Shown: piece by piece, positions 20,170 to 48,500 of the stretch
How the letters are laid out: every line of letters begins with the position of its first letter
How positions within the stretch are numbered: position 1 is the stretch's first letter
From: Conidiobolus incongruus B7586
Taxonomy: Eukaryota
DNA: 54,373 bases
Assembly (NCBI GenBank): GCA_000697335.1
Contig: JNEM01011672.1
Span: 1-54,373 of the forward strand
Direction of reading: 5' to 3'
Translations under genes and position numbers: made by a program
Notes under the pieces: model-generated
Database searches by the model: none
Seen by the model: the letters and a program-made list of their open reading frames with translations, nothing else
What the model was told of the DNA's origin: nothing

Positions 20170-21489
20170 TGGTTATATTAATCATACACTAAATTTTGTC
20201 AATGGAAATCTATTTATATTGAAGCACTTGAAACCCATTTTCAAATAAAATCTCATGCACTGAACAACTCGAATTTATCAAATAAAATGTCTTTAACATT
20301 TGATTGGCTCATTTTTCACTCATCTAACACTTTTCCAGATCACTTAGATTATGAGAATTGTTATCAAACTTGAAATTCACTTCAGTCTCAAAATTTTTGA
20401 ATCAATAATCGAGCCAGAGATATTTCAGACTTACTTCATCTCAGTCCATTTATTGTCATATTAAAAGGATGGAATTTAAAACTATATTTAAGCTTAGGAT
20501 AATATATCATAGATAGTACTAAATATAATACTGGCATGATAAGGCTATGATTTTTGTATAATTAATTTATTACTTCATATTAATGGAATAATTAGCTTCC
20601 CTCAGGATTTGAAAATTTTCCATTTTTATTATTCTCATATTTTATCCCTTACCAACTATTGAAATTAACTCTAAATTATAACAACATTCCATATACTTTA
20701 AAAATAATATCATAAAAAACAGCCAGTTAATTTGAATATATGAAAATAGGGATAAATTAACAAATTATACTAATGATATTATTAATTTCGATAATGTAAA
20801 AAATTTGTTTTATAACATTCTAACCATTTATTCCGATAAACCCTGGTACTAAATTTGGGAAATAGTGAAGTGGATAATCAGATTATACATTTGACCAAAT
20901 TTCCTAATCTTCACAAGAGTCAAAAGTCCAAAATATATTATTACATTTACTATTGGTCTTCAAATTATTCAAGGAAATTTGCGGGATATCTAGGTTTCTT
21001 GATAAATTAAAATTTATAACTTAATTCTAATTTTTTTTAATAACTTTCATTGCTGGTATCAAGTTAATATTATGAATTTGAAAAAAAATAATTACTAATA
21101 GAGTATAAAGCAGACGATGACAATCTTATAAAAATTTATTAGTTAAATTACTTTAGTATGGTTTAATTACACTATATCCCATTTCAATCATCTATAAAAC
21201 AATTAATTCTAGCATATTTCAAATTCAATTAACCATATATTAATCAATATTGTGAAATATACTTATCTGATAATTAATGAATTAAAAATCATTTTCAATC
21301 AAATAATAATTCTCTTTGCCATTATTTTTTTTCATTCATATGTAACTAAAGACTTGAATCATTTGACTTCACAACAGAATATCAATTTAGGTATTTTAAA
21401 ATGACAATATAAAATCTATGGCAAGGAATTTAGAACCAGATTGAGGTTTCTATTCAATATATTTTTATAATCAATTTTATTGATTTATT

Positions 21490-23270
21490 TTAACTTAGAT
21501 ATCGCTCACAATTAAAATTGTCCAAATCCTGCATAGAGTCTAGAGATCCCAATGGAGTAAGCCCCAACCCCAATGTTGAAAGGCTGGCTCGATTGACTGT
21601 TAAATAGTGAGAGAGTGTGTTTCTAGCAGTATTGGCGTTTTGATTCATCTCAACATAACATTGAAGATGCTTGAAAGTCTTGCTTGATCAAGGTTATATA
21701 TGCAAATATCCACAATTACCACATGTTTTGCTTATATAATGCTTATCACAGATGATTAACTCGCACTAAAGGTATTCTCTTATTTGGTTGAGTAAGTATT
21801 ATTTAAATCTGTAATAAAACCATCTTAACATTACATTTATACTTTTACTCTCAATCCATTTACTAGCTTTTCTCCCCATTTTTTCAGTCTCCAATTAAAG
21901 TAAAATTATGCATTTTTTTATTAATCAATTTGCTAAGTTTCTTACATACCTTATCCAGAAGGTTTTGGATTTATTTTCTGATTTTGTAATATTTTCCTTA
22001 GTAGATTTCTTTAAGATTATCTGATTTATAACTTATTATAAGTAAAATAGAAACAATGAATTCTCTCAATATCTTTTTTACTCAAGTTACAATCTAATTA
22101 AAAAAGAGTAATTAGTTGTAAAAGATTATATGTTTGGATCAAAATCTAAAATTCTTTTTTTATATTTCACAAAAAAGCTTTATTATCTTAATTAATTTTT
22201 AGTGGTATCAAAATGTGTTCTTGAAGTTTAATAATAATAGAATAATATGGATATTTAATTTATATGTAGAGGAAGATAATATCAATTATGATTATTTAAT
22301 TTTATATTTGTAATTTTTAATAATTAGATTAATTAAAAATAATGAAATATCTTTATTATAAGTTTACATAAAAATATTAAGTTAATTCAACAATATAAGG
22401 TATTGGTATTAAGTTTACAATAATCAAAAAATAAATTATATAATACTTAAGGGTATAGTATTGAATAATTAAATATTTTAAAATATGAATTCAATATTAT
22501 ATATCAGTAAAATATGATTAAATGTGATAAAATGAACATAAAATAAATTCAAAACGAAATATATCACAATTAATATCTATAACAAATTTTATCATTTAAA
22601 GGTAATAACTATAATTGAGCTTTTCTGGAAATGGTCTAGTTGTTTGAATTAGCTTGCTATTAAAATAGGCATAGTGGAAAACATTTTTTATCTAGTAATT
22701 AAAATTAATAATAACTCAAATTAATTTTATATACTTTTATATTATATTATTTCTTGTGAGTGATAAAATTGGTCTTTATATTTTTAGGAAGTTGTGTATT
22801 GTTATGTTTAAATATAAGTAATTTCTAATACCAACTAGATTTCATCCTTTGAGCTTTTTATATTTACATATTTGATATTAGTTTTTTAATTTATTTTATT
22901 TACTCCTGTCAACCATTCTGAAATATTGATTATAAGTCTAGTTTATTACTCTAAACCGTTCTATCAATATATCTTCTTGTTAAGGTTTGGAAACAGCTTA
23001 ATTTTGTTTTTTTTCTATCAGTTTTTTGAAATTTTTTAATGTCTTTTTTTATGTTGTATTTTATTTTCTTCATTTTTGTATAATATATTTAATTAATCTT
23101 AGTTATAAAATAATTAGATATTTTAAAAAGTAATCTTTAAGTTCCCTTGTTAAATCATGCTTTTTGTGGATTTAACAAAACTATTAGTTATGTGATAGTT
23201 TTTTAAAGATGAACCTATGGAATTTAAATTGTTAACAACAATGTTTTTCAAAATAATAATAATTTTAGAG
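21490..23270 (-). pseudogene. Fanzor2 (IS607-TnpB-derived RNA-guided RuvC nuclease) pseudogene
   Basis: In order: KIKLFPN..ILIERFRVIN*TYNQ (~22925-23005); PFPEKLNY..*MIK (~22590-22640); RuvC-I ILDFDPNI*SFTTNYS (DP at 22135-22140); KDIERIH..YNKL*; IQNLLDKVCKKL; IILL*LETEKM..MLRWFYYRFK*YLLNQIREYL*CELIICDKHYISKTCGNCGYLH (TCGNCG 21709-21726); SKTFKHLQCYVEMNQNANTARN (21619-21648, ancestral DRDxNAARN). The 5' boundary is approximate. Confidence 0.88.
22216..22584. mobile_element. 369-bp AT-rich insertion interrupting Fanzor, solo-LTR-like
   Basis: Fanzor homology stops and resumes at its edges. Termini are TGTT...AACA (TGTTCTTGA vs TGTTATAGA inverted). No clean TSD. Confidence 0.4.
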
Positions 23271-23595
23271 AATAATCCGTTTATAAAATTTTTTAATAAA
23301 TATAAAAACTATTTGATTTGAGGCTAAATTTCAATCTAATATATCACACGATTTCATATTCGGGAAGCTTTTTTAAGGTGTTAATTTTGACGTTTCAAAG
23401 AGACTCTTGTATCGTAAGTTTCTAGGTCGGGCGTGGCTTTTTAGGTTGATTGAGAAGTTGTCAAATATTGGAAACTGGGTGAAACTTGAATTTACCTAAA
23501 GTTCATATGGTTTTAATCTTTTCTGTTCTATTCTAATGTTTAAGACTTGTTGATGAGATTGTAAAATATTGAATTTTAGAAGCAGGAATAATCAT
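23060..23595 (-). pseudogene. tnpA: IS607 TnpA (MerR-like HTH + serine recombinase) pseudogene
   Basis: IPASKIQYFTISSTSLKH*NRTEKIKTI*TLG (HTH; cf. S..TLRRW...GKIKTIRTPG); YDTRVSLKRQ (catalytic YARVS-like, 23399-23416); PEYEIV (23347-23364); FINGLFSKIII, FIFKKL, RELKDYFL..NYFITKIN (C-terminal helix, ~23090-23147). Confidence 0.75.
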
Positions 23596-24822
23596 ATTTG
23601 CTCATATTTGACTGAAGACGGTAATAGTGTATTTGCTGCTGTACTTTTTGAAATTAAACATTATTGTAAAACAATAACCAAAAATCTGTGTTGCAAGTGA
23701 TAGTTTATCTCGGCCTTAATTAAATATTGATAGGCGTGCTCAGAATCATTGGAAGTTTCGGGAATGGTTAAAGAATTTAAATGGGTTCATAATTGAAAAA
23801 TAAATTTTATTTAAGCTTGATAGTTGAGAAGCAGTAAATTTAAAATATTTTTAACATACGATTGTTAAATTTAATGTTATATATGATTTAAAAAGAATAT
23901 GAGAATATTTATTAATATCTCTCTGATTAATTTACTAGAATTTTTTTCCAACATGAGCAACCAAATATCATTATACCATGAATATATTCTATTTTAAAAT
24001 ACCATATGATGAGTATTAACATATCAACTACTAAAAGATTCTAATTTTGCCATATTTAAATTACACAACATGAAGCCAAATATTTATCAGCTAGAGTTTG
24101 TAAAAATTATCACTATATATTTAAAAACCTCTGGTAGTTTATTTAGATCATAAATATACCTCAATATTAGATTCAATCCAAATGAAATTAGAAATATTTA
24201 GTTTAATTAATAAAAATTCTCTTACATATATTATTTCATTATATTTAATTAATTGCACTTCAAATAATTGCCACATTATCTATAAAATTATATCATTTGA
24301 AATTAGCAATATAAGTTCAATGTTGAATTGTGATTACTAAACTTCGAGAAAATATCATCTGACTCAGTATCCCTATCTTTTTAATATCCTGATTAATCTA
24401 TTATTCTCTCAAAATTCAGTCCCAACTTATTTTTAATATTGTGTGTTGTAGTTATATAACAATAATATTATTTATTGATATGGTATACTCTAATTTCATC
24501 GAACTAAATTCTAAGTTTACTAAACTTTATTAGTAATAATTCAAGTCTAATCGAAGTATTAAGAATATATAGTTAATACCTCTATATTTTCCAATTTTTT
24601 CGTAATTCAACATGTAAAGACTCATACTTTTTATTTGGCAAGGTTGATTTTTAATAGCAGATATCATTTAAAAAATTTCCCAAATAATTTTATAATGGAC
24701 TGTTCTTAAGACCTCAAATATCAATCCCATAATTAAAATAAATAACCACATTGATTATATATGGATGATTTCAACTTTGGGAATAATATAAAAAAAACAA
24801 AATAATAATAATTATTATAAAT

Positions 24823-31588: not shown

Positions 31589-33232
31589 CTATTTATATTT
31601 GTGATCAAATTTAACCAAACTATCTATATACTTCATAAACTCTAAAACCTTTTCATCACTCGATTTCTTACCCACGATTTGAACACCAATAGGTAAACCT
31701 GCCATTTCTTTACTATTATAAAATGAATAACATAATTTTTGCGCCCAATAACCTCTATTATAATCCTTAGGTAATTTCTCTTTCAGCCATTGATTGACAT
31801 TATCCATTCGATCCAAATCAGCATCAACTTTAGTCACAGGAATAACACCACTTGGATAATTGTATAAATTAAAGATCATACAGGGCCACAGCGACGGACT
31901 GATAGCAATGAAGGTATCGTGTTTTTGGGGTGGTGATACAGAAACAGGACATATTAATACATCCATTTGATGGCCATCTTTCTCCCCAGTTTTGATCCAA
32001 GCATCCAAAGTTTCTTTCGCCAATTGATTCTTTTGCTCTTGATAATTCCATAACTTGGCAACAGTTGGCAGGATTGAAAAGGTCAATAAATCGCTATATG
32101 TCTTCTGTCCCAAGAAATTTGCCAGTGCATACTGCAAACATTTCTTGACAAAGTTTGGAATTTGAAGGACTCTAACTAATGGTGAGATTAAGGAAGTATA
32201 CGATTCAGACCAAGTCATAAATCGCTTTGCATTATCTAAGCCATCCGATACTAAGATAGCTCCAGCTAATTTGTACGCTTCAGCTGCTCCAGGTATCTTG
32301 AATTCAAATACTTCATGTCCCTCTTTCTTCAATAATTCAACCACTTCTAACACCGCTCGTTCACATACTGGAGTCGAAGGGAATACACCATTGCTGACAA
32401 TATATCCAATCTTATAACGTTTCTCTTTAGTAAATTGAAATGGTTCATATGGTGTTTTAGTGCTGTCACTATCAATTTCCCAAGGTTTTAACTGAATAAC
32501 ATGACGGAATACAGCTGCAAGGTCATCCACACTTCTACCCATAGGCCCTGGAGAAGTCAAAATCGAATCTTGGCCCGAAGAGAATCGAAAGTGACCAGCC
32601 ATTGGAAATCGTCCAGCAGTTGGTTTGAACGAATAGATCCCGCAGTAACTCGCAGGAATTCTCAAGCTACTTCCTGAATCACTACCGATTCCCAAAATGG
32701 AGCCTCTCGCACCGATTAGAGCACCCTCACCGCCACTACTTCCACCACAAGTAAACTCAGGATTATAAGGGTTCTTAGTGACACCAAACACTGGATTAGA
32801 GGTCTCAGTAGTCAATCCAAATTGAGGTACATTAGTTTTACAATAGGGAATACATCCCAACTGTCTCAACAATGCAACAATTGTAGCATCTTCTTGTTGA
32901 TCAACCTCTCCTAACCTCTGATAACCGCCCCAAGTTGGCCAATTTTTAACATGGAAGGAATCTTTCACTGATAGCGGAACTCCCAGAAAAGGATACTCGG
33001 ATTCAGGAAATGAAATCCCAGCTTGAATATCGATATCCAAACGTTCAGCGGCTTCTAACGCCTCCTGTTCCTTCAGAAGAATTACACTGTTGGTAAATGC
33101 GTTAGCCCGTTCCGTCATCTGAATCACTGTTTCCATCACTTTTTTAGCAGTCCAATTCCTCGAGCGGATTTTGTTAGCTACTTCTAAAGCTGATAGTTCT
33201 TGAATTTCTTCAATTGAATTTTGATTTTTCAT
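31589..33232 (-). CDS. Amidase-signature family enzyme (FAAH/acetamidase-like), copy 1, intronless
   Basis: GVPLSVKD (Lys), KTNVPQ, GGSSGGE (cis-Ser), GSDSGSSLRIPA (Ser nucleophile), GLPIGVQIVG. Confidence 0.93.
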   Translation of the reverse strand: MKNQNSIEEIQELSALEVANKIRSRNWTAKKVMETVIQMTERANAFTNSVILLKEQEALEAAERLDIDIQAGISFPESEYPFLGVPLSVKDSFHVKNWPTWGGYQRLGEVDQQEDATIVALLRQLGCIPYCKTNVPQFGLTTETSNPVFGVTKNPYNPEFTCGGSSGGEGALIGARGSILGIGSDSGSSLRIPASYCGIYSFKPTAGRFPMAGHFRFSSGQDSILTSPGPMGRSVDDLAAVFRHVIQLKPWEIDSDSTKTPYEPFQFTKEKRYKIGYIVSNGVFPSTPVCERAVLEVVELLKKEGHEVFEFKIPGAAEAYKLAGAILVSDGLDNAKRFMTWSESYTSLISPLVRVLQIPNFVKKCLQYALANFLGQKTYSDLLTFSILPTVAKLWNYQEQKNQLAKETLDAWIKTGEKDGHQMDVLICPVSVSPPQKHDTFIAISPSLWPCMIFNLYNYPSGVIPVTKVDADLDRMDNVNQWLKEKLPKDYNRGYWAQKLCYSFYNSKEMAGLPIGVQIVGKKSSDEKVLEFMKYIDSLVKFDHKYK

Positions 33233-34210
33233 TTTTAAATTGTGATATTATTGTCAATTGAAACTAAGTCTTAATTGTTTTTCGATTTTGATTTGTGATT
33301 AATATACTAAAACTTTCGGACAATACTTTCAACTGATGACAAATTCTTACAATATTATTTAATACTTACAAATTGAAATCTATGATATTTATCCATATAT
33401 TCAAGATGATGAACTTTAATGTCAATTTATGAACTAAATATTAAAAATTATATTCAACAGGATTTTATTTATAAAAATGGTCGGATTTCTTAGGTAGATT
33501 CTATGGAATGTTAGTAATCAATTAATTTAAATTTCCATTAATAACAATATATGATTTCAATACGTGAATAACAAATAATTGAAAAAATTGGAACTATATT
33601 AAATTCAAATATGCACTGACTTGTGATGATGTCACTAATATATGCTTCATTTTTTACCAATTTTATTATAACTAATTGAATAATGTAATAGTGTTGAATA
33701 TTTTATTGTATTTATTTAACTATAATATATTAAATTCTATAAATATTAAAACAATGTTATCATATTTTTCATTGTGACATCTTTATATATATTTTTTTTA
33801 ATCGATCAAGATGAATCAATACAAATTTGATGAACTTATTCATCTTGCGAAATTTTATGCCTTATATTATTATGTGGAAGTTGAATTTATTCCAAACTCA
33901 AACCTTTTGAATATTAATGAATTATTATAATAAATAATGTAGAGTATTATCTTTACAATATTTATAAATTGAAAATTCATTAAAATATATCAACACAATC
34001 CATTTTAAATATTGATTATTAAATTTATTATTTGTTTTGTATATATTTTATGAATATTTTTAAACTTTAAGTATTGAAACAAAAAATAGTGTATATATAA
34101 TTCATGATTTGATTTGAATTAATTTAATTTGTATTGAGGTGTTTGAAGAAAATTGAGTTTTTGATTTAATGTAATAATTTTGAACAATATAATTCGAATG
34201 GATTAATTTT

Positions 34211-35782
34211 TATAATATCAAAACATCAATATACCTCATAGTAATTTAGGTTCTTTCATATTCGGATTCTGTGCCTACAATTCGAATTCCTATTAATAAC
34301 ACAGTCATTTAATTAATATCATAAAGTGAATACCATAAAATCTGTGCCCAAGCTCCTCCTTTATAATTTTTTGCAACTTCTACGACCATTGGTCAGTCTC
34401 ATTCAATCTGTTTAAATTAGCTTCTACTCTAGTCACAAGAATCGCTTCACTGGAATAGTTGAGCATATTTAAATTCATGATAGGCTGGAGACATGGACTA
34501 ACCTAAATGAAATTGTTATACTTTTAAGGAAGCAATACGACTGCAGGCAATATTTAAATATCCTTCCCATTACCATCAAGGCCTGTGTTATTCCAAGCAC
34601 CCAAAGATTGTTTTGCTCTTGATGGTTCCTCAATTCGACAACGTATAGGGGTACTACAAAGTTGAAAATATCACTTAAAGCCTTTTCCAGAAATACTGGC
34701 AAGAACCAAATAAAAACTTTGAATCACCAAATTCAGAATTTCAAAGCTTCTAATGAGTACAACTTTCACTCAGAAGTATGGCTCATTCCATTCCACGAAT
34801 TATTTTGCATTTTCTAGATCATGTACAGCTAGAATTGATGCCGCTAACCTATAGGCATTAGCCATTCCAGGTAAATTAAATTCAAATACTTCACGACAAT
34901 GACTTCTCAATAATTTGACTACCAAATCTGCTCATTCACAAGCAGGAGTTGCAAAAATAGTTGATTATTTACAACACATCCAATCTTATTGTGTCTATTT
35001 TAGATAACTCCAATTGTCTGTAAAGAATTTTAATTGACTCGCGATTTATTTTTCAAGGTTCAGACTTAAGCATATTTCGAAATGCTGTCTCTAAATAGTC
35101 AGCACTCTTCCTCATTAGACCTGGTACCGTAAGTGTCGACTCTTGACCTGAGAGATAATTGTGATTACCAGTTATTGGGAATTTTCCAGGAGTTTGTTTC
35201 AATGAATAGCTCTCACAAAAACTACCTGGGATTCCCAGGCTACTTCTTCAGTCGCTTCCGATTTCGAGAATAGGACTGTGAGCTCTAACTAATGCTCATT
35301 CACTGTCACTGCTCTCTCCACTGGTAAATGCAGGATTATATGGATTATTGGTAGCGCCAAATACAGGATTAGCAGTTTCAGTTGATAAACCAAATTGAGG
35401 GACATTAGTTTTGCAGTATGGGATACATCCTAATTTTTTAACACTATGGCCAAAATAGCATTTTCTTTTTGCACCACTTCTCCCAACTTGCGATATACCG
35501 TTCAAATTGGCCAACCTTGGAATGGAGCATCAAAAAATGAATGCTCAGCTTCTAAGAATGAAAAACTAGCTTTAATAACAATGTCTAAGTGTTCAGAAGC
35601 TTCCAAAGCCTCCTGCTGCTTTAACAGAATCACATTGTTGCTCAATTCGCGAGCTCGTTTTAGTATCTTTATCACTTTCTCTATTACCTGCTTCGCAGCA
35701 CATTCTTCAGAGCGAACCTTGTTACCCTCTTTCAAAGCTGCAATCGCTTGAATTTCTTCTTCAATAGCATTATATTTATGCA
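34211..35782 (-). pseudogene. Amidase pseudogene (full-length, frameshifts and stops)
   Basis: Colinear fragments EEEIQAIAAL..QEALEASE, LGCIPYCKTNVPQFGLSTETANPVFG, GSD*RSSLGIP, EVFEFNLPG, GIRIVG..MRYID. Confidence 0.9.
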
Positions 35783-36897
35783 TAGTAGACAAACAATTTA
35801 TTTCATAATTGTTGTAAGAATACTAGACTTATAAAATTAACTCGAAACAATTTTTTATTTATTTCATCATGTGACTGGATTTGACTACAAATAATTTACT
35901 CAAAAAAATTTTGTATTCCAGAAAAAATTATTGTATATTTATAAAATTAATGAATTCAAATTAATTGAATATATGTTCCTAATAACCAAAGCAATATTAA
36001 TCATACTATACATGTTTAATTTTTGCAAATAATATGAATTTTATATTTGAAACTGAACAATATCAAAATAATATTATGAGCAGGGAAATGCACAAAGAAT
36101 AATTAAATATAATCAATATATTCCTTATTTAATTATGTCAATATCAATATTACATATTAAATATTTAATATTATTAACTCAATTATACTAATAAAATTGA
36201 ACAAAATATTTTAATTAGTGGTCAATGGAAAATAATATATTTTTTTAAAGTTAGACTTGTAGATTTAAATTTAACAAATCACTATAATTTCTAATTATTT
36301 ATATATAACAATATTTCATTTTACTTTGAGTATCATATATTTAATTGATTCAAAAATATTACTACATTTTTTAACAGCATTTTTATTGGATATGATAAAA
36401 ATTCTTGTTGAAATAGTTCAAATGAATAATCTATGTTATATTTACATCATCAATTTACTTATCTTTCAATATTATAATTATACGTTTGAATTAAATTTTA
36501 ATTATGATATTTCAGAAATCATGTTTCAGTTATATATATTATTTGACGCTTATTTTAAAAAAATCATAAAATTTTTATAATTATTAATTAATCTTTTACT
36601 TATTATTGATTTATAAAGCATTTTTTTGATTAGATATCAAATATTTAAAATTCAAAATATAATTATTATAATACAATTGGATGAATTTAAGTTATGTAGC
36701 ATGAAATTTAAGGTTTAACTAAGTAGATATCAATTTATATAAACATTTGCAGTATCAATGAAAATGTATTTTTTGTAATAGTTGTCATATGTGGAAGCAG
36801 TGATATTTTTCGATAAGAATATTGATATTTTTATTTTTAACCAAGAGTTATATATGGATATAAATCATTGCATTAATCAAAAGTTCAGCTAATTTGG

Positions 36898-38541
36898 TTA
36901 TTTGATTTGATGAGTTTTAATCAAACCATCAATGTATTTCATAAATTCTAGCACCTTTTCATCCTCTGATTTTTTGGCAGCAACTTGAATCCCAATTGGA
37001 AGTCCTGCCATTTCTTTGCTATTATAAAACGAATAACATAATTTTTGGGCCCAAGTTCCTCCATTATAATCTTTAGGTAATTTCTCTTTGAGCCATTCAT
37101 CCACGTTATCTAATCTATCTAAGTCAGGATCTACTTTAGTTACTGGGATCACACCACTAGGATAGTTCAGCAAGTTGAAAATCATGCAGGGCCAAAGGGT
37201 TGGACTAATGTACATGAAAGTATTGTGCTTCTGAGGAGGCATTGCGCTAACGGGACATATTAAAACATCCATTTGATGACCATCTTCCTCTCCTGTCTTA
37301 GTCCAAGCTTTAAGTGCTTGTATACTCAAATCATTTTTCCTCTCTTGGTAATTCCAGAGTGTGGTGACAGAAGGTAGATTTGAAAAACCCAAAATATCAC
37401 CTAAAGTGTGTTGTCCAAGGATATTAGTGAACAAAAATTGTAATCCTCTAGCAATAAAGTTGGGAATTTGGAGAGTTCTAACAACAGGTGCGGTTAATGC
37501 CGAATAAGTCTCATACCACCCCATGTGCCTTTTAGCGTTTTCTAAACCGTCAGCAAGTAAAATACGACTGGTTATCTGATAAGCATCGGTAATTCCAGGT
37601 AAATCAAACTCAAAAACTTCATGACCTTGATTCCTTAATAATTCAACTACTTCTAAAACTGCTCTCTCACAAGATGGAGTCGCTGGAAAAAGATTGTTAT
37701 TTACCATATATCCAATTTTGAATTTTTGGTCTTTTTTAAGGGTGTATGGATCGTATGGAGTCTTGGTACAATAGCCATCAAATTTCCAAGGTTGAGATTT
37801 GATCACATATCGAAACATAGCTTCAACATCCTCAACACTTTTTCCCATAGGGCCTGACGTAAAATTGATTGAATCCTGACCCGACATAATTGACATTTGA
37901 CCGTAATTTGGAAATCTTCCAGGAGTAGGTTTGAATGAATAAATTCCACAAAAACTAGCTGGGACTCTCAAACTACCACCAATATCACTTCCAATACCTA
38001 ATACCGATCCTTGGGCTCCAATTAAAGCTGCTTCACCACCACTGCTACCACCAGAAGTAAAATTAGGATTGAATGGATTCGTAGTGGTCCCAAATACAGG
38101 ATTGGCAGTTTCAGTTGCTAAACCAAATTGAGGGACATTAGTTTTGCAGTATGGGATACATCCTAACTTTTTCAAAACCGTTACAATAGTAGCTTCCTCT
38201 TCTTGTACTACTTTGCCAGCTTTTTTGTAACCACCCCAAGTAGGCCAGCCTTTGACATGAAAGAAATCTTTAACAGATATAGGAACACCCAAAAATGGAT
38301 ATTCTTTCTCAGGGAACTCTTCTCCAGCTTTAATTCTGCTATCCAGACCTTCTGCGGCTTTCATGGCTTCTTTGTCTTGCCAAAGTACGACACTATTAGT
38401 GAAATCTTGTGCTTGTTTTGATAACTGGATGACAGTTGCCATGACTTGTGTTGCAGTCCACTTTTTAGAACGAATATTTTTAGCTATTTCCAAAGCTGAA
38501 CTCTTTTGAATCTCATCTTCGATTAAATTCACCATTGTCAT
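36898..38541 (-). CDS. Amidase-signature family enzyme, copy 2, intronless
   Basis: GVPISVKD, GGSSGGE, GSDIGGSLRVPA; 547 aa. Confidence 0.93.
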   Translation of the reverse strand: MTMVNLIEDEIQKSSALEIAKNIRSKKWTATQVMATVIQLSKQAQDFTNSVVLWQDKEAMKAAEGLDSRIKAGEEFPEKEYPFLGVPISVKDFFHVKGWPTWGGYKKAGKVVQEEEATIVTVLKKLGCIPYCKTNVPQFGLATETANPVFGTTTNPFNPNFTSGGSSGGEAALIGAQGSVLGIGSDIGGSLRVPASFCGIYSFKPTPGRFPNYGQMSIMSGQDSINFTSGPMGKSVEDVEAMFRYVIKSQPWKFDGYCTKTPYDPYTLKKDQKFKIGYMVNNNLFPATPSCERAVLEVVELLRNQGHEVFEFDLPGITDAYQITSRILLADGLENAKRHMGWYETYSALTAPVVRTLQIPNFIARGLQFLFTNILGQHTLGDILGFSNLPSVTTLWNYQERKNDLSIQALKAWTKTGEEDGHQMDVLICPVSAMPPQKHNTFMYISPTLWPCMIFNLLNYPSGVIPVTKVDPDLDRLDNVDEWLKEKLPKDYNGGTWAQKLCYSFYNSKEMAGLPIGIQVAAKKSEDEKVLEFMKYIDGLIKTHQIK

Positions 38542-39171
38542 AATATTTAAATTAATTTTAAATTTTAAAATTTTGTATTATAATTTTTTTTTATAAAATT
38601 TTATTAAAATTTTAAAAAGATTTAATATTTATATAAAAAAATAGATGACGTATTAAATAACTCATTATCAAATTAAAATACACTATTTGAGTCATTCAAT
38701 TAAAATTGCATAGATATTTCTATTTTGAGATTGTGTCATTATTATTAATCAGTGTTTTTATTTGCATATAACTTTATTTGTTATTCAAATTTATATTAAT
38801 TCATCATTTTCCTAGAAATTATTTAAATTATACTAAAAATAGAAGAAGGAATAATATATTTTCCGTAATACAAATTTTATAATAAATGGAATTATTAGGA
38901 TGGAATTAGTACTTGGTTAAAAATATAAGAACTTTTTTTTGAAAAAATATTAATATAAATTTATTACTAAAATTTTGTTTAATTGATATTAATATAATAT
39001 ATTCTTTTGGAAGTATAAATATTTTAAAATGTTCCATTTGATCAACTAACCTGGTTCAATAGTGTTATTTTGAATGATTATTTTAATTGACTAAAATTAT
39101 TATTATATTATTGACAATTGTTATTTGAATTGATTGAAAATATATTTAATAAAAATATTAATAAAATAATA

Positions 39172-40487
39172 TTACTCTGCATTTTTAATAATGGGAATTT
39201 TTTGCAATTAAAAATAAATAAACATTTGAATATATGATATATAAAAATAAATATATAATATAAATTTAATAGTTTCTTTTATTATTAATAATTTTTTGCT
39301 ATACTTTTAGCAAACTTCTAACACTTAAAAAACAGTTCTTTTTATTAAAGACTAAAATTTAATGTTTCACAAACCAATTAAATTTTCCTGCAGAAATTTT
39401 CTTTCCTACAAGCTGGTTTTTTAATTGCCTAAAGCAATTATAATTACATAGGTTATAATCAAAAGAATATACTAGATGTGGTAGTTTTTTCTAGTTATTT
39501 TTAATTAGAAAGTTTTTTACAACTTTAGATTTATGTATTTTGCAATTATCATGCAAAATAATAAGTCTTCTCAAATTATATTAAAAACACTAATTAGAAA
39601 TACTTTTATTTAAAAAAACAATATATAGTTTACTATTAATTAATTTTCTTTCAAGAACTAAATAAGAATAGCATATACTATTATAATCTATTGTAATAAT
39701 TAATATTCACTTATTAACAAAGTGTTTATTTAAAGGGATTTGTGGAAAAGGTTAATTTAACTTAATCTAACATTTTGATTTGTGTTTTAGTAAAGGATTA
39801 TACATAAAAATCTAAGATTCATTAATTGTAATTATTTACTGTAAAAGTTTAAGCTTCTAGTAATATTTTAATAAGTTTTGTTTAGTAATAGCTACTCTAG
39901 CTTTTTTTTAAGCTTTAGTTAAATTATAAGGTACCTATTTTACATTTTTATTTATTAATTTTAGTTTAAACTTTAAAATATATAAAATACTTGTAAAACT
40001 AATATTAAAATGCTTAGATAATTCTCTAGTTGAAATAAAAAAGTGCTTTTCAATATATTTTTTCACTTTATTTACAATTAAAAGAGTAATAGTTAAAGTT
40101 AGTCTTTTAGATTTTAACAGGTTTTAAATAGTTTCTTTTTTAGCTTTAAAGTAATTTACCCAACAATAAATTGTTGATTTAAATAATACTTCATTACCAA
40201 AAGCTGCTTGTAAATTTTAAATAATTTTAGAGGGTTTATGGTTAAGTTTTACTAATACTAAAATAAAAAACTTTTGATGATTACTATTTGGTTTAAGTAT
40301 AATTAAATTAAACAACCAATTTTAAAAAGTTAATTTTTTAATCAAAAAAACTAATATATATATATATATATATATTAAAAATATATAATTTCCTATTAAC
40401 TTTGTATATATTTATTCATTTCAAACTAATAATATGTTTGAAAAATTAGAAATTAAAAAATTTCCCATTATTTCAAATTCAAGGTAA
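39172..40487 (-). mobile_element. Degenerate mariner (DD34D) DNA transposon, copy A, 1316 bp
   Basis: Flanking TA at 39170-39171 and 40488-40489. Imperfect TIRs TTACTCTGCATTTTTAATAATGGGAA / TTACCTTGAATTTGAAATAATGGGAA. Dead transposase ~39266-40300 with K*VPYNLT (WVPH), IITINES* (D1), LHDN (D2) and PHLVYSFDYNLCN (YSPD..CD, D3); 34 residues lie between D2 and D3. Confidence 0.93.
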
Positions 40488-40689
40488 TACTATAATAATG
40501 TAAAATTAATTACCATATTTGATTGTTATTTAATATTTAAAAAATTAAAATGAATAATATTCAAAATTATATAATTGAATTTTAATTATATATTATAAAA
40601 CTATATTTGGTATTTATTAAAATAATAATATCATAAATATTTATATTTGAAATAGATAATTATCAATTCATAATTTGTTTAATTTGCTA

Positions 40690-42333
40690 TTATTTGTTCT
40701 GATGGGCTTTAACTAATTCATCAATATACTTCATAAACTCTAATACCTTTTCATCTTCAGATTTTTTACCTACAACCTGAATACCAATTGGTAGTCCAGC
40801 CATCTCCTTGCTATCGTAAAATGAATAACAAATCTTCTGACCCCAAGTCCCTCCATTGTAATCCTTAGGTAATTTCTCTTTCAACCATTGGTCTACATTG
40901 TCTAATCTATCTAAGTCGGCATCAACTTTGGTAACTGGAATAACACCACTAGGATAGTTGAGCAAGTTGAAAATCATGCATGGCCAAAGGGTTGGGCTGA
41001 CAAACATAAAGGTATTGTGCTTTTGAGGTGGTAATGCGCTTACAGGACAAATCAAGATATCCATTGGACGCTCGTAATCATTTCCAGTTTTGTTCCATGC
41101 TTCATGTGCTTGAATACTGAGGTAGTTCTTTTCTTCTTGATAATTCCAAAGCTTAGTAACAGATGGAAGATCGGTAATGCCGACAATTTCACTAAGTGTC
41201 TTTTGGCCAAATACCTTATCAAGCAAAAATTGTAAACCTTTGGTTATAAAGTTAGGAGTCTGAATAGTTCGAATTACAGGAGCAGTTAATACTGAATAAG
41301 TTTCATACCATCCCATGAAGCTTTTAGCATTTTCCAAACCATCAGCAAGCAAAACGCGAGAAGATAATCTATAAGCATCAGTTGCTCCAGGTAAATCAAA
41401 TTCAAACACATCATGACCTTGCTTTCTTAATAATTCAACTACCTCTAAGACTGCTCTTTCGCAAGCTGGAGAAGAGGGGAAGAGTTTATTGTTGACAATG
41501 TATCCAATTCTGAATTTTTGATTTTTATTGAGTCTGTATGGCTCATATGGAGTCTTGGTACAATAGCCATCATGCTTCCAGGGCTGTGATTTGATTACAT
41601 ACCTAAACATTGCCTCAACATCCTCAGCACTCTTTCCCATAGGTCCTGAAGATGTATGGATTGAATCCTGACCTGACATAATTACCATATGACCATAAAT
41701 AGGAAATCTTCCAGGAGTAGGTTTGAATGAATAAATTCCACAAAAACTAGCTGGGACTCTCAAACTACCACCAATATCACTTCCAATACCTAATACCGAT
41801 CCTTGGGCTCCAATTAAAGCTGCTTCGCCACCACTACTGCCTCCACACGTAAATTTAGGATTAACTGGATTCGTAGTGGTCCCAAATACAGGATTGGCAG
41901 TTTCAGTTGATAAACCAAATTGAGGGACATTAGTTTTGCAATATGGGATACAACCCGCTTTTCTCATAAGAGTAACGATAACAGCTTCTTCTTCCTGAAT
42001 TACTTGACCAGCTTTGTGATAACCACCCCAAGTAGGCCAACCTTTTACATGGAGGAAATCCTTAACAGATATAGGAACACCCAAAAATGGATATTCTTTC
42101 TCAGGGAACTCTTCTCCAGCTTTAATTCTGTTATCTAAATCAAATGCAGCTTTCATGGCTTCTTTTTCTTGCAAAAGTACCACACTATTCGTCAATTCTT
42201 GAGCCTGCTTTGTCAATTCGATCACAGCTTCCATGACCTCAGTAGCAGTCCATTTTTTGGAACGAATGTTATTGGCTATATCCAATGCTGAGCTAATTTT
42301 AATTTCATCTTGAATTAAATTTCCTTCGGTCAT
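40690..42333 (-). CDS. Amidase-signature family enzyme, copy 3, intronless
   Basis: GVPISVKD, GGSSGGE, GSDIGGSLRVPA; 547 aa. Confidence 0.93.
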   Translation of the reverse strand: MTEGNLIQDEIKISSALDIANNIRSKKWTATEVMEAVIELTKQAQELTNSVVLLQEKEAMKAAFDLDNRIKAGEEFPEKEYPFLGVPISVKDFLHVKGWPTWGGYHKAGQVIQEEEAVIVTLMRKAGCIPYCKTNVPQFGLSTETANPVFGTTTNPVNPKFTCGGSSGGEAALIGAQGSVLGIGSDIGGSLRVPASFCGIYSFKPTPGRFPIYGHMVIMSGQDSIHTSSGPMGKSAEDVEAMFRYVIKSQPWKHDGYCTKTPYEPYRLNKNQKFRIGYIVNNKLFPSSPACERAVLEVVELLRKQGHDVFEFDLPGATDAYRLSSRVLLADGLENAKSFMGWYETYSVLTAPVIRTIQTPNFITKGLQFLLDKVFGQKTLSEIVGITDLPSVTKLWNYQEEKNYLSIQAHEAWNKTGNDYERPMDILICPVSALPPQKHNTFMFVSPTLWPCMIFNLLNYPSGVIPVTKVDADLDRLDNVDQWLKEKLPKDYNGGTWGQKICYSFYDSKEMAGLPIGIQVVGKKSEDEKVLEFMKYIDELVKAHQNK

Positions 42334-44259
42334 AATATTATTAAATATAAATATATATAACCTATATTACAATTTTGAATTTCAAACAAAAAAATTTTTT
42401 CTTGAGAAGTTTAGATTTTTTTTAAAAAAAAAAGAAATAAAAAAGAAATCTACACTATTTATACTATTTTATTATTAAATTTACTTTTTATCCAATATGG
42501 TATTTTAATACTTGTTATTACTAATCACAAATCCATAATATCCATTTGGCTTTATTTGTTTGTTCATTTTAATGCTCAATAAAACATTTCCCTTAATTCA
42601 TATATTGGTAAATGGAGTCGGGTAAAGTTTATTAAATTTTTTATCCTAAATTTTAAAATTTTAATTAAATTGAAATTTAAAGATGATCTTATTATTATTA
42701 TTATTATTATTTAAATTAAACTTTTATAGGTTTCAGTAAAGTATGTAAAAATATAAAAATTCACTTATCTCAAATATTATTATGTATTAAATGAGACTGC
42801 TCTTATTTAATTCTTTTATTCAAACTTATTTAATTAGGGATTAATTAATTAAACTATAGAATACAATTTAAATGTCTATAATCAAATAATCTAAATCATT
42901 AAATTGGAATAATATAACTAATCGGTCATTTTAACTATTTCTATAAGTACTTATAAATTAGGAAATTGAACATAAATATCCTTATATATATTTAATTTAA
43001 ATAATATTTAAAATGATAAATTGAATAAACATAAAATTTCAGTAAAATTAAATCATATTATTACTTCTTTTATAAATAATTAAAAGTTTATTATGATTTA
43101 TTTTAATTTATATAAAACTTAAATAATTTAATAATATAAATAATTTTTTAATGTATAGGTTAATTATAATAATTTTACTGAATAATTTTATTAATATATA
43201 TAAATTAAAATGATTAGACTTAATAAATTTTAATTTATGCTTTAATATAATATATAAAAATTTTATGAATTTTTATAACTTTAAAATAAATAAAAAAATA
43301 CACTAAAAATAAATTAAATTTTAAATATTATCTATGGTTTGATTTTATGCATAATAAGTCAAAGAGCATACTTATAACTATTTCATACTAATTCAATTAT
43401 GATATGAAGTTTAAATAATTTTAATACTTATAACAAATAACTAATAATATTATAATTAATATTAAAGTATAATTTTGAAAATGAAAAATAATATGAAAAT
43501 AAAATTTATATATAATAAAAATTTCGGATAAAATATCGGTTATTAATATATTTATTTAGTTGTACAAATTTAATTTTAATTGAAATTATTTATATTAATT
43601 TTAAAATTTTAAAAATAAAAATTTTAATGAAAAAAAGAATTTTTTTTTATAAAATATATACTTTATAATTATTATGCAAATAATAAAATAGTTGAAATTA
43701 ATTAGTAGATAATTTACAGTCATTTCTTAATTTTGGTATTGGTAATTATGTTATATACTGTAATTTTGATTGATAGTATCAAATTTAATCTACGAATTTC
43801 GGATCTTATTAATATATATACTCATATCAAAAGTAATGTTTAATCTGACATAAATTTAATCAAATTTATAAACTCTCTAATACTGAATGCAATTAACATT
43901 TTAAGATGATATATTGCATATTGTTATAAACATTTTTGTTCAAGCTATTGAATTAAACTAACAATAAAATTATCTTAATAATGATAAATATTTGATATTA
44001 TTTTTATACTCTATTGTTTCAATTATATTTCAAATATCATAGAACTCTAGCTAATTGCTTAATTAATTCAATGTTTATATAATGAATATAACTAACTAAA
44101 TAATATCTTATTTTGTTCAAAACTTTATTTCTATATCAAATTTTTAGTTTCAATTAAAATAAAAATTTATTGGTTATTAAAATCAAAGATCAAATTTCTT
44201 AATATTATTGAAGTATTAAAAAACTATATATTAATAAACTAATTATTGTGTGGGATGTA

Positions 44260-45526
44260 TTACTTTGTAATTTAAATAATGGGAATTTTTTGTGATTGAA
44301 AATAAATAAACATTTTGATATATGATATATAAAAATGAATATATAATATAAATTTAATAGTTTCTTTTATTATTAATAACTTTTTGCTTTACTTTTAATA
44401 AACTTTTAATACTTAAAAAATAATTCTTTTTATTAAAGACTAAAATTTGATGTTTTATAAACTAATTAAATTTTCCTACAAGCTAGTTTTTTAATTACTT
44501 AAAATAATTATTATTATATAAGTTAAAATCTAAAGAATATATTAGATATGATAGTTTTTTCTAATTATTTTTAATTAAAAAGTTTTTTATAACTTTAAAT
44601 TTATGTATTTTATAATTATCATGTAAAATAATAAGTTTTATTGAATTATATTAAGAATACTAATTAAAAATAGTTTTATTTAAAAAAAATATAAAGTTTA
44701 TTATTAATTAATTTTTTTCAAAATTAAATAAGAATAACATATGTTATTATAATTTACTACAATAATTAACATTTACTTATTAATAAAGTATTTATTTAAA
44801 GGAATTTATAAGGGGAGTTGATTTAATTTAATCTAACACTTTAATTTATATTTTAGCAAAAGATTATACAAAAGAATTTAAAATTTATTAATTATAATAA
44901 TTTATTATAAAAGCTTTAGTTTCTAATTATACCTTAGTAAATTTTATTTAATAATAATTACTCCAACTTTTTTTAAGTTTTAATTAAATTATAAGGTATT
45001 TATTTTATATTTTTATTAATTAATTTTAATTTAAATTTTAATATATATAATATACTTATGTAATTAATATTAAAGTATCTTAATAATTCTTTAACTAAAA
45101 TAAAAAGGTATTTTTTAATATAATTCTCTACTTTATTAATAATTAAAAAAGTAACAATTAAAATTAGTTTTTTAGATTTTTATAGTTTTTAAGTAATTTT
45201 TTTTCTTAATTTTAAATTAATTTACTTAATAATAAATTATTAATTTAGATAATATTTCATTATTAAAAGATACTTATAAATTTTAAATGATTTTAAAGGG
45301 TTTATAGTTAAGTTTTACTAATATTAAAATAAAAAACTTTTAATAATTACTATTTGGTTTAAGCATAATTAAATTAAATAACCAATTTTAAAAAATTATA
45401 ATATATATATAATTCAAAACTATTAATTTTCCTATTTATTTTGTATATATTTTTTTATTTGAAACTAATAATATATTTGAAAAATCAGAAATTAAATAAT
45501 TTCCCATTTTTTTAATTCTATAGTAA
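44260..45526 (-). mobile_element. Degenerate mariner (DD34D) DNA transposon, copy B, 1267 bp
   Basis: Colinear direct repeat of copy A with TA flanks at 44258-44259 and 45527-45528. Same TIR core (AATAATGGGAA..TTCCCATT). ATG retained at 45364-45366. More AT-shifted than copy A. Confidence 0.92.
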
Positions 45527-48500
45527 TAATTAGATTATTTAAAATAAAACATTATATTAAAATTATAAATTATGAAATCTAATTACTTATGCTTATTATT
45601 AAAATAATTTTATAAGTTCAAATACAGGTATTTTAATCTATCTATATAATAAATTAATTTGATATATACTTAATTATCAAGGAAATATTGTTATAAATTT
45701 GATAATTAAAAATTTAAGTTTAAAACAATAAAATATATAATTTATGGTAATTAAATTTAAAAAATTTACAATCTAAAATAATTTAATTATAAAGAATAAT
45801 TTAAAGATAATTAGTATGATTCCAAATAAAATATTATATTATTATAAATCAAATTAAATTACCATATATAATGGTTTTTTCTGGATTTTTTAGTTTTCAA
45901 ATAAAGTTTATAATTATATTAATTATATTAATTATATAACTTTGATTCAACTTTCAATTCTTAATTTTTAAAAATTAAACTAAATAAAATTTAAAAAAAA
46001 GAAGTTTATTAATAAAAGAGAAGTTAATTATAATAATTAATATTTTAAAATACTATATTATTAAATTTCGTTTAAAATTTAGCTAAATATAAAAATCAAT
46101 ATTAATTTATAATCTGTTTTGATTAATGAATAACATTATAATCCTAATATATCCTATTTATTAAATTGATGTTTTAAATATGTTATGTTTAAATGATCTT
46201 ATTTTTTATTATATATATAGGTTTAAAATCAATTATTTTTATAGATAAAATTAGGATATTTTTCAAAAAGTAACAAATAATTAGTGCAAAAATATAAATT
46301 CAAAACAAACACACTTTATTTCAATATTTTACCAATTATATTCAAATTCAATTATTTATATATTTATATTACTATATCTAAATATTTTTACTTTGTTTTA
46401 TTATTTAAATTTCAGATAATCTAAAATAAAGCAAAAAGATTTTTAATTAATATTAGTCTATTGGGGTTTATCAATTGATATTCACTAGAATTATTAAAAT
46501 TTTAAATTTTAATAACTATTCAAGCATTGTGCTGGATATGCTAAAAATTTAAATAAAAATGAGAATTTAATTTGGTTACATGTAAAATAAGTTGGGTATT
46601 TATTCTAAAAAGAACTATTAGAAATCAGTTTTATTAATAAATGAAATAGAGTAATCTTATTCAAACGTGTAAATCAGAAGAAATTGTAAGGATCTTAAAT
46701 GAAGTATAGACCATATGCTCATTTATTTATATATGTAAAATTTTATTAATTATTTGATAGGGAATGAATACTTTTATAAATTTAAATTATCGGGAAAAAG
46801 AATGGTGGATAACAATTAGATTAATAATTTTTCAAAATCCATAAATTTATAATATTATATTAACTTAGAAATTGAAAAAAAAAGATTCAATTCTTTTTTC
46901 TTTTTATAAAAAAATTTACAATTTTCAACTTATATATTTAAGAAGTATTTGAGGTGTTCATATTGTAACTAAAAAAATATAAAATATTAGAATTGATTAA
47001 ATTAATCGAAAACCCAAATTATTAAATTTTCTAATTATTTTTCTATATCTCCACTTTTGGATACCTTTTATAATTTTCATATGAAATTTTATTGGGTTTA
47101 TTTTTATATATTATAATTATAATTTATAGTTTTAAAATCAGCTCTTTCGATTCTTTTATATAATACACGAATTATTAAACACTAATTAATTAGTAAAATT
47201 AACACTCGAAATATTGAAATTGGAATTTTTTTCATAAAATAATAATTAACATAAATGATAGCATTAAAATGCTTAATACTTCACTAATTGTTTAATTTTA
47301 AATTATTTGAATCTATAATATTAATTATTAATTAAATACATATTATATAATACCAATTTCCAATTTTTATCAATTCCATTTAATACAAATATAAATAATA
47401 CCATAAATAAAAATTAATATAGTATATATATTATTCATTAAAACCTTTTGAAGTTAATATTATAATTAATTATAGTCTAATTTAAATAATTGATATATTG
47501 AAAATTTGAATAATATAAAATAGTTAATAACTTACCTACTAAATTCAGGAAATATATATCCAGCTATAAGTGATAGTATTGGTTAGAAATTTTTAATATT
47601 AAAATTATATAGTTTAATTTATGTTGTTTTTAATAATTAGAAGTAATATTAATTATGCGTTTTAATTAATATTAAATAATAGTAAAAAATGAATTGATTG
47701 GTATATAGTTGTAAAAGTTAGGAAATTGACATTAGAGGAATTAAAAGTTAATTCCAAAAAAATTGAGTTTAAATTAAAATAAAAACAAATATAAAAAATT
47801 AATCAATTTTTTGAACAAATAAGGAAGAGGTTCAGCAATGGAGAAGTTTAATTCAAGATAGAACCATTTCTTTATAAATTAAAAATATAAACAAGGTTTA
47901 AATTATTCATCTTCTGGAGTAGTTGATAAACTTTGTTCATTTTATGGTCAGATGATATATATATATAAGTATACTAAATTCTCAATTATTTAAATTTTAT
48001 TACAAGAAATTTAAACTTATACTAATAAAATTATTAAAAATAAAAATTAAATCTTTTAATTACAAAATGATTAAAATATTATAATATTAAGAAATATATT
48101 TAAATTTTAATCAAATAATGATATTGCAGATTAGATGCATTTTCAAAATGAGATATAGTTAGTCAAAAGAAAATGCCAGGTATTGGGTATTGTATTGATA
48201 CAGATTTAGAATATTTCAAATTTTGCATAAATAACTGATATATTTGAAATCGATTAATCCATAAAAGTATTTTATTAATTTGTATTATATATACTTTTTA
48301 AATATTTAATATATGTTATAATTAATCTCTAATAATTTAGTTAGTTTCACAATGTTAACTGTTAATTATTCTAAATCATGTTTCCTTATGTAATGTTCTA
48401 GTAAAAGTGAAATTTTAAAATTAAAATAAATTTATTTTAATATTTAAATTATATTGATAATTTGTATTATATATAAGCTTTTATTTACTATCAATGCAAT

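What the first reader, a model, noticed from the sequence alone, without database searches (positions are those of the whole stretch)
21490..23600. Hidden IS607-type TnpA + Fanzor2 RNA-guided nuclease element in an apparently empty intergenic region
Seen: no ORF is called between the TBC gene and BNA6. Yet the minus strand reads, in the right order, a MerR-like HTH and YARVS-type serine recombinase, then all TnpB/Fanzor landmarks. These are the N-terminal K.KLFPN..W.YNQ, RuvC-I (DP, ancestral DPGVR), IILL..ET.KM, W..YRFK, CD(E>K)HY.SKTCGNCG zinc finger and RuvC-III (NQN.NTARN from DRD.NAARN). Established: Fanzor2 descends from IS607 TnpB and has its catalytic Glu shifted next to the zinc finger, matching the 'CDEHYTSKTC' position here. 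IS607 uses a serine-recombinase TnpA. Inference: an autonomous, prokaryote- or giant-virus-style IS607-Fanzor2 family colonised this fungal genome. This copy is dead, but a consensus or intact sibling could give a new compact eukaryotic programmable nuclease with its own recombinase.
Basis: partly seen in the sequence, partly recalled or inferred. Interest (0 to 1): 0.9.

Follow-up and report, generated by a model that had tools for sequence, protein, structure and literature searches.

The report
Dead IS607–Fanzor2 transposon in Conidiobolus-like fungus
Between two ordinary genes of a Conidiobolus-like fungus lies the mutated wreck of a bacterial-type jumping gene (a serine recombinase plus a small RNA-guided nuclease of the Fanzor2 kind) with dozens of equally decayed relatives in the same fungus, which likely spread by its own transposition long ago; this kind of element is already known from fungi, amoebae and giant viruses.

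Summary
Real, but of a known kind. The minus strand of about 21503-23780 carries, in order, a decayed IS607 TnpA, a decayed Fanzor2 and a right-end motif shared with related elements. The nuclease C-terminus scores 128 bits against a Fanzor2 profile (permuted profiles at most -13). TnpA is faint: no Pfam hit, significant only in an end-to-end frameshift-aware test (0 of 200 permutations). The host is Conidiobolus-like (BNA6 79% to C. coronatus). Contigs of the likely source sample show at least 38 different versions of the left-end region and 18 of the zinc-finger region, none 95-99% alike at the left end: an old family; no intact sibling was seen. The closest named relatives are Glomeromycota Fanzor2 fragments, one already in a published table, and intact TnpA+Fanzor2 relatives exist in metagenomes. 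This scan has found dead fungal IS607/Fanzor2 elements before on other DNA. New here: the host lineage and the copy number.

The parts
21503..23780 (-). Whole decayed IS607-Fanzor2 element, about 2.28 kb with the insert and about 1.9 kb without; left end known only to within about 23765-23790
   Evidence: colinear profile alignments; sibling contig cover high inside and at background from 23789; right-end motif
23600..23780 (-). Left-end region upstream of tnpA; the most widely shared part in the sample
   Evidence: 55 of 56 contigs laid on 23600-24200 are not the window's own; 38 differ at 23711; cover back to 21.2 from 23789; three contigs join it to the zinc-finger or mid-nuclease region and one to the tnpA start (table 5); no Pfam family in six frames at E<0.1; no direct repeats
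23085..23598 (-). tnpA pseudogene: N-terminal HTH plus serine-recombinase domain; 7 stops and 7 frameshifts in the best path; catalytic Ser codon kept at 23401-23399
   Evidence: end-to-end score 1.7 vs permuted profiles max -21.1, 0 of 200; HTH 0 of 200, catalytic C-part 1 of 200, catalytic N-part 27 of 200; profile members are NF033518 IS607 transposases
22595..23014 (-). Fanzor2 pseudogene, N-terminal part (KIKLFPN..., ...FPEKLNYSYYL)
   Evidence: HTH block 0 of 100; block 215-275 marginal; block 150-215 not significant
22211..22590 (.). About 380-nt insert, 14% GC, origin unexplained; no convincing terminal repeat and no GT at the inferred junction
   Evidence: junction read by eye
21986..22210 (-). 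Fanzor2 pseudogene, end of WED and RuvC-I (D-P-N at 22140-22132; relatives D-P-G)
   Evidence: 0 of 100; DPG in 96 of 97 relatives over 350 aa
21576..21985 (-). Fanzor2 pseudogene, C-terminal part: shifted catalytic Glu position reads Lys (21744), third zinc-finger Cys reads His (21669), RuvC-III reads N-Q-N (21645-21637)
   Evidence: sibling contigs carry letters giving Cys and D-x-D at these places (table 3)
21503..21650 (-). Expected omegaRNA scaffold and right end; motif ATTGTGAG at 21512-21505
   Evidence: homologous to the 3' region of L002; the L004 family diverges right after ATTGTAGAG; fold of this copy not significant (z -1.2 and -0.55); no Rfam match

Best explanation
This is a dead, nearly full-length copy of an IS607-type transposon carrying TnpA and Fanzor2, which likely entered a Conidiobolus-like fungus by horizontal transfer and likely multiplied to tens of copies by its own serine recombinase before all visible copies decayed. 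When alive, TnpA would have excised the element as a double-stranded circle and inserted it by crossover at a short dinucleotide, without terminal inverted repeats or target duplication. Fanzor2 would have loaded an RNA made from the right end, with flanking DNA as guide, and cut empty sites. This mechanism is taken from published IS607/TnpB work and was not tested here. Shown: gene order, homology, loss of function, host lineage, many diverged sibling sequences. Inferred: horizontal entry, spread by transposition, former activity. Today the copy has no function of its own.
For: Colinear TnpA, Fanzor HTH, RuvC-I, zinc finger, RuvC-III and right end, about 1.9 kb without the insert. Relatives carry the Fanzor fingerprint: Glu at the shifted position in 139 of 140 motif-bearing sequences among 161, DPG in 96 of 97 long ones. 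The copy nests in the DPG/shifted-Glu clade (SH-aLRT/UFBoot 95.9/95), sister to metagenome protein P0005 (77.6/92). A profile of 35 relatives has PDB 9b0l (TnpB-like protein L79, 520 aa) as best hit, E=1e-56, next E=8e-28. Of 120 aligned codons against P0005, 73 are the same and 37 one base away, 23.5 of these by G>A or C>T, including the E>K and both D>N. Flanking genes are fungal: TBC and BNA6, 79% to Conidiobolus coronatus, next named species 65%. One 3703-nt contig spans 21158-24800 without a difference. Siblings: 38 contigs differ at 23711 and 18 at 21692, the listed ones at single-copy-like depth; 0 of 56 are 95-99% alike; cover is at background in the left flank from 23789 apart from one short piece.
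Against: TnpA homology is faint: no library hit, weak local scores, N-part of the catalytic domain not significant (27 of 200). An unrelated host exon reached a higher raw end-to-end score (4.2; 1 of 200 windows), though only about 3 sd above its own permuted profiles against about 9 sd for the element. The middle of the element has little sibling cover (25-83 against about 25 background), so full-length siblings are inferred from joints whose middle letters are not known. Sibling flanks could not be read, so transposition is not proven. The runs laid with cover (X1, X4) are one sample, possibly the window's source. The tree rests on 124 columns and the group with the Glomeromycota fragments is weak (79.4/68), so no donor is named.
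Confidence: 0.85

Rival explanations
1. The nuclease is a Fanzor2 carried by a different eukaryotic transposon (Fanzor2*), or a lone Fanzor2 fragment; the TnpA is a chance pattern and the high-copy 23600-23780 repeat is a separate element.
For: No library hit for TnpA; single-protein local scores barely above decoys (mean 14.4 vs 11.2, best 18.8 vs 16.2, and the best match lies out of register); the left-end repeat is more numerous than the nuclease part (38 vs 18 contigs at one position). Fanzor2* elements exist.
Against: End-to-end TnpA test 0 of 200 under shuffled DNA, permuted columns and permuted blocks; HTH alone 0 of 200; position, strand and length match intact relatives; contigs join the repeat to the tnpA start and to the zinc-finger region; no terminal inverted repeat between the ends among the 25 longest of 213 pairs.
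Confidence: 0.07
2. One horizontally acquired IS607-Fanzor2 was copied passively, by segmental duplication or inside a larger repeat, and never transposed in the fungus.
For: Gilbert and Cordaux explained many eukaryotic IS607-like copies this way and found no proof of transposition. The right flank (20600-21431) exists in a second, about 85-93% alike version in the sample.
Against: Sibling cover stops by 23789 and the left flank stays at background; loose ends inside the element still resemble the window, while the three at 23764 agree poorly with each other (0.64) and with the window (comparison by eye); tens of copies.
Confidence: 0.06
3. The stretch is contamination or misassembly of bacterial or viral DNA, or a domesticated, working gene.
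For: Close relatives occur in metagenome and giant-virus-like contigs; domestication of IS607 pieces has been proposed in yeasts and oomycetes.
Against: A single contig spans both ends and flanks without differences; composition matches host intergenic DNA; no ORF of 70 aa lies in the element; catalytic residues are changed.
Confidence: 0.02

Closest known systems
IS607-type elements with Fanzor2 in eukaryotes and giant viruses (ISvMimi/ApmFz2, ACa-1/-2; Bao and Jurka 2013, PMC3627910; Jiang 2023, PMC10530073; Schargel 2024, PMC11832414; passages read)
   Same: tnpA then nuclease on one strand; DP(G) RuvC-I; Glu position next to the zinc finger; no terminal inverted repeat seen; relatives' profile hits PDB 9b0l best (that 9b0l is ApmFz2 is my inference from its name and 520-aa length)
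   Different: dead; 380-nt insert; overlapping N-terminal extension not detectable; host is an entomophthoralean fungus; tens of diverged copies
Fungal IS607-like/Fanzor2 sequences: yeasts and Ustilago hordei (Gilbert and Cordaux 2013, PMC3673617, parts 2-4 of 6 read); Glomeromycota rows of Yoon 2023 Table S2 (PMC10711439, supplement search)
   Same: same clade of nuclease; RHZ56817.1 of Diversispora epigaea is both my hit P0009 and a row of that table; Scutellospora CAG8436474.1 in that table reads as TnpA followed by Fanzor2
   Different: no Conidiobolus, Entomophthora, Basidiobolus, Neoconidiobolus, Massospora or Smittium row there; copy number here appears above the maximum of 22 per genome in Gilbert and Cordaux
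Cyanobacterial 'pro-Fanzor' IS607 TnpB (Yoon 2023); example fetched: Microcoleus phage My-WqHQDG element (L001)
   Same: DPG and shifted Glu, with an IS607 TnpA
   Different: more distant: 37% over 89 aa against 60% for P0005; not next to this copy in the tree

Membership tests
Fanzor2 / pro-Fanzor clade of TnpB | RuvC-I motif DPG | tested here: inconclusive
   this copy reads D-P-N at 22140-22132, two G>A steps from DPG; the Pro is kept, unlike D-hydrophobic-G in the canonical outgroups; block significant, 0 of 100
Fanzor2 / pro-Fanzor clade of TnpB | catalytic Glu six residues before the zinc finger, none at the canonical place | tested here: inconclusive
   position reads Lys (AAG, one G>A from Glu); 139 of 140 relatives have Glu; the canonical position holds a stop where relatives have Pro; sibling letter at 21744 not among the rows shown
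Fanzor2 / pro-Fanzor clade of TnpB | phylogenetic nesting among DPG/shifted-Glu nucleases, apart from canonical TnpB | tested here: met
   IQ-TREE, 40 sequences, 124 columns: clade 95.9/95; FastTree on 228 of 267 candidates agrees
Fanzor2 / pro-Fanzor clade of TnpB | located in a eukaryotic or eukaryote-virus genome | tested here: met
   between fungal TBC and BNA6 genes; one contig spans it
Fanzor2 / pro-Fanzor clade of TnpB | structured omegaRNA with pseudoknot at the right end | tested here: inconclusive
   region homologous to L002, whose 1900-2030 stretch folds at z -3.3 (1925-2045 only -0.3); this copy z -1.2 and -0.55; no Rfam match; pseudoknot not tested
Fanzor2 / pro-Fanzor clade of TnpB | RNA-guided DNA cleavage | not testable with these tools
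   this copy cannot make the protein
IS607 family | TnpA = N-terminal HTH + serine recombinase, upstream of tnpB | tested here: met
   end-to-end test 0 of 200 under three null models; no library hit on the decayed copy itself
IS607 family | no terminal inverted repeats, no target duplication | tested here: inconclusive
   no end-to-end inverted repeat among the 25 longest listed of 213; left end not fixed to the base and decay could hide one
IS607 family | subterminal TnpA-binding repeats; crossover dinucleotide at the ends | tested here: inconclusive
   no direct repeats in 23590-23850; right-end motif shared with relatives; no confirmed empty site
Fanzor1 or Fanzor2* in eukaryotic TIR transposons | DDE or other eukaryotic transposase, TIRs and TSDs | tested here: not met
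   no such Pfam family in the element's three minus frames or in six frames of 23560-24400; TnpA found instead

The most novel reading that the evidence does not exclude
An IS607-Fanzor2 element transposed by its own serine recombinase to 20-50 or more sites in the nucleus of an entomophthoralean fungus. That would be direct genomic evidence that this prokaryotic IS family can amplify in a eukaryote, which Gilbert and Cordaux could not show. The element belongs to a clade shared by Glomeromycota fungi, a protist-like host (with a spliceosomal intron in tnpA) and giant viruses, and the many dead copies would yield ends, target motif and an ancestral sequence. A still-intact copy in this genome is a separate, less likely extra (about 0.08).
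Probability: 0.55. Interest if true: 0.45.

Novelty: new member of a known kind. Interest (0 to 1): 0.3.

Why it matters
It extends IS607-Fanzor2 to a Conidiobolus-like fungus (none found in the searches) and offers a genome where tens of dispersed copies could test whether IS607 transposes in a eukaryotic nucleus. As a source of a new editing tool it is poor: the copy is dead, and intact TnpA+Fanzor2 relatives are at hand (open frames for both in L001, L010, L018, L021, L026, L035).

Tried and rejected
Word-index search with the decayed C-terminus among longer proteins: 0 of 186 candidates. tblastn of 150+ relatives found only 2 matches outside the C-terminus. First TnpA profile (10 sequences): local score reached by 37 of 300 shuffles. 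Other 1-kb windows are not a fair control for the end-to-end score, because open host exons score high; replaced by profile permutation. Single-protein TnpA comparison uninformative. A suspected second TnpA near 39124 is part of a decayed mariner copy. Overlapping Fanzor2 N-terminal extension not detected (82 of 100). The insert as an intron: rejected by eye (no GT at the junction, 380 nt); as a MITE: no convincing terminal repeat. RIP as cause of death: the element's dinucleotide indices (TpA/ApT 0.95; substrate 1.2) are close to intergenic DNA and unlike the mariner copies. Rfam: no match. No RNA holder listed. Runs X5 and X7 (same species label as X1) laid nothing, which is no proof of absence. 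Six host proteins were not in the collection by exact sequence. A joint 21431->24006 in a 1466-nt contig may be an empty site, but has only 43 letters on its short side and unknown letters between; the second lay did not list it. Tree rows dropped: 25 of 267 too short and 14 duplicates; 40 chosen by hand.
Full report
Observation. No ORF of 70 aa lies inside the element. The frame 22098-21496, read with stops as X (P0001), hits Pfam PF07282 at E=1.4e-5, NCBIfam IS607_TnpB weakly at E=0.03, and 1286 of 1.84 billion representatives at E<=1e-3. The best, P0005, is 60% identical over 120 residues (E=1e-39). Among the 161 hits and cluster members, 139 of the 140 with the zinc-finger motif have Glu at the shifted position, and 96 of 97 longer than 350 aa have DPG. 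This is the Fanzor/pro-Fanzor fingerprint of Yoon et al. (PMC10711439; parts 1, 3, 4 of 7 and passages read).

Anatomy of the nuclease. A frameshift-aware alignment to a profile of 35 relatives runs from 23014 to 21576. The HTH block, RuvC-I block and C-terminus each beat 100 of 100 column-permuted profiles; block 215-275 is marginal, block 150-215 is not significant, and the N-terminal extension that overlaps tnpA in relatives is not detectable. The best full path has 8 frameshifts and 36 stops, insert included. RuvC-I keeps its Asp (D-P-N); the shifted Glu reads Lys, the RuvC-III Asp reads Asn and the third zinc ligand reads His. Against P0005, 37 of 47 differing codons are one base away, 23.5 of them by G>A or C>T.

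TnpA. This part is faint. Libraries give nothing. With a profile of 120 IS607 TnpA relatives (three of them scanned, all pass NF033518), local scores are reached by 2-3 of 200 shuffles and by 8-18 of 200 other windows. End to end, 23595-23085 scores 1.7 against -41.1+/-4.6 for shuffled DNA. One host exon scored 4.2 on the same statistic, so I permuted the profile instead: element 1.7 vs -39.8+/-4.5 (0 of 200; also 0 of 200 for permuted blocks), the two best host exons 4.2 vs -11.8+/-5.2 (1 of 200) and -3.2 vs -15.4+/-5.2 (3 of 200). By domain: HTH 0 of 200, catalytic C-part 1 of 200, catalytic N-part 27 of 200. The R-V-S codons are intact. I accept TnpA on order, length and position together, not on any single hit.

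Ends. Downstream of the nuclease, the window is homologous to metagenome element L002 and ends in ATTGTGAG (21512-21505), where L002 has ATTGTAAG; copies of a related family (L004, L005, L009, L029) diverge right after ATTGTAGAG. The would-be omegaRNA of this copy does not fold better than shuffles and has no Rfam match.

Host and family. The flanking BNA6 exon is 79% identical to Conidiobolus coronatus, 82% to an unnamed protein and at most 66% to the rest of the 120 listed; the other neighbour is a TBC gene. X1 and X4 are one sample and may be the window's source. One 3703-nt contig covers 21158-24800 without a difference. On 23600-24200, 56 contigs were laid: 1 at 99% or more, 0 at 95-99%, 13 at 90-95%, 42 below 90%; 38 differ at 23711. 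At 21692, 18 differ. If the sample holds two diverged haplotypes, which the second version of the right flank allows, the locus counts would halve. Three contigs join the zinc-finger or mid-nuclease region to the left-end region, and one joins the tnpA start to it; the letters between are not known. Siblings show letters that give Cys and D-x-D where this copy has lost them. The middle has little cover at 80% likeness. Reading: an old family of tens of decayed copies, with no sign of a young intact one; a copy over 20% away would be missed.

Relatives. In a 40-sequence, 124-column tree the copy is sister to P0005 (77.6/92) inside the DPG/shifted-Glu clade (95.9/95), in a weak group (79.4/68) with Scutellospora and Diversispora fragments (P0010, P0009, P0036; names), L002 (flanks read as intron-broken eukaryotic genes), L003 (flanks read as giant-virus-like; both my reading, by eye) and P0006. 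The relatives' profile hits PDB 9b0l best. Open frames for both TnpA and the nuclease stand in 6 of the 161 loci examined that carry the shifted Glu (L001, L010, L018, L021, L026, L035).

Mechanism. IS607 TnpA is a serine recombinase that works without terminal inverted repeats or target duplication (PMC6188088, abstract) through a double-stranded circle and a dinucleotide crossover; the nuclease uses a right-end RNA. I carry this over by homology; nothing here tests it. The element lacks the RIP-like dinucleotide signature of the two mariner copies in the window, so ordinary AT-biased decay with many indels is the simplest account of its death.

Known and new. Fanzor2 in yeasts and IS607-like elements are in Bao and Jurka (PMC3627910, passages). 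Gilbert and Cordaux list 80 IS607-like sequences in 14 species, including Ustilago and yeasts, at most 22 per genome, and found no proof of transposition. Yoon's Table S2 already holds Diversispora (25 places), Scutellospora (7) and Rhizophagus (9), and none for Conidiobolus, Entomophthora or Basidiobolus; its Syncephalis and Coemansia rows look Fanzor1-like in the 4 rows shown (my reading). Jiang's supplements gave no hit for six names (main-text passages). Full-text searches for Conidiobolus + Fanzor and Entomophthor + transposable elements + TnpB gave 0 papers; two fungal transposon papers do not mention IS607 or Fanzor in their main text (PMC11105155, PMC5751038; passages). I did not see Saito et al. 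2023 (recalled), Repbase or bioRxiv supplements, which may list such elements. This scan has noted dead fungal IS607/Fanzor2 elements on other DNA, none on this genome or on look-alike DNA.

Verdict. It is a new, dead member of a known kind in an apparently unreported host lineage, and its best use is as a test of IS607 transposition in a nucleus. Interest 0.3.

Noticed in passing
window 39170-40519 and 44258-45558: Two decayed Tc1/mariner copies (Pfam HTH_48 E=0.0027, DDE_3 E=0.024 on the first). 170 of 222 differences are transitions, only 11 are transversions at C/G; no CpG is left; TpA/ApT 1.21 and 1.14, substrate index 0.83 and 0.61, against 172 transitions to 73 such transversions between amidase paralogs. 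A RIP-like or methylation-driven signature outside Dikarya; PMC11105155 suggests RIP in Entomophthorales with caveats. One pair only.
   Followed up: partly
L002:250-349: A 100-nt GT...AG intron-like stretch in an IS607 element; removing it opens both the TnpA frame and the overlapping Fanzor2 N-terminal frame. No RNA evidence.
   Followed up: partly
window 20600-21431, and 24006-24049: The right flank exists in a second, about 85-93% alike version at similar depth; one 1466-nt contig joins 21431 to 24006 and could be the empty site.
   Followed up: partly
window 22211-22590: Unexplained 14%-GC insert inside the Fanzor2 pseudogene; a few contigs match parts of it at 80%, which may be chance in such AT-rich DNA.
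   Followed up: partly
window 31589-42333: Tandem cluster of three intronless 547-aa genes that read as amidases (label recalled from the GGSSGG motif, not scanned) plus a broken fourth copy at about 34475-35822.
   Followed up: no
L004, L005, L007-L009, L012, L023, L025, L029: A multi-copy Fanzor2 family in related metagenomes whose copies diverge right after ATTGTAGAG, i.e. different insertion sites in an unknown host; L006 holds a 916-aa open frame.
   Followed up: partly
L001:1644-3351: Complete TnpA + pro-Fanzor-type (DPG, shifted Glu) element in Microcoleus phage My-WqHQDG; the record calls the nuclease hypothetical and lists no tnpA.
   Followed up: no
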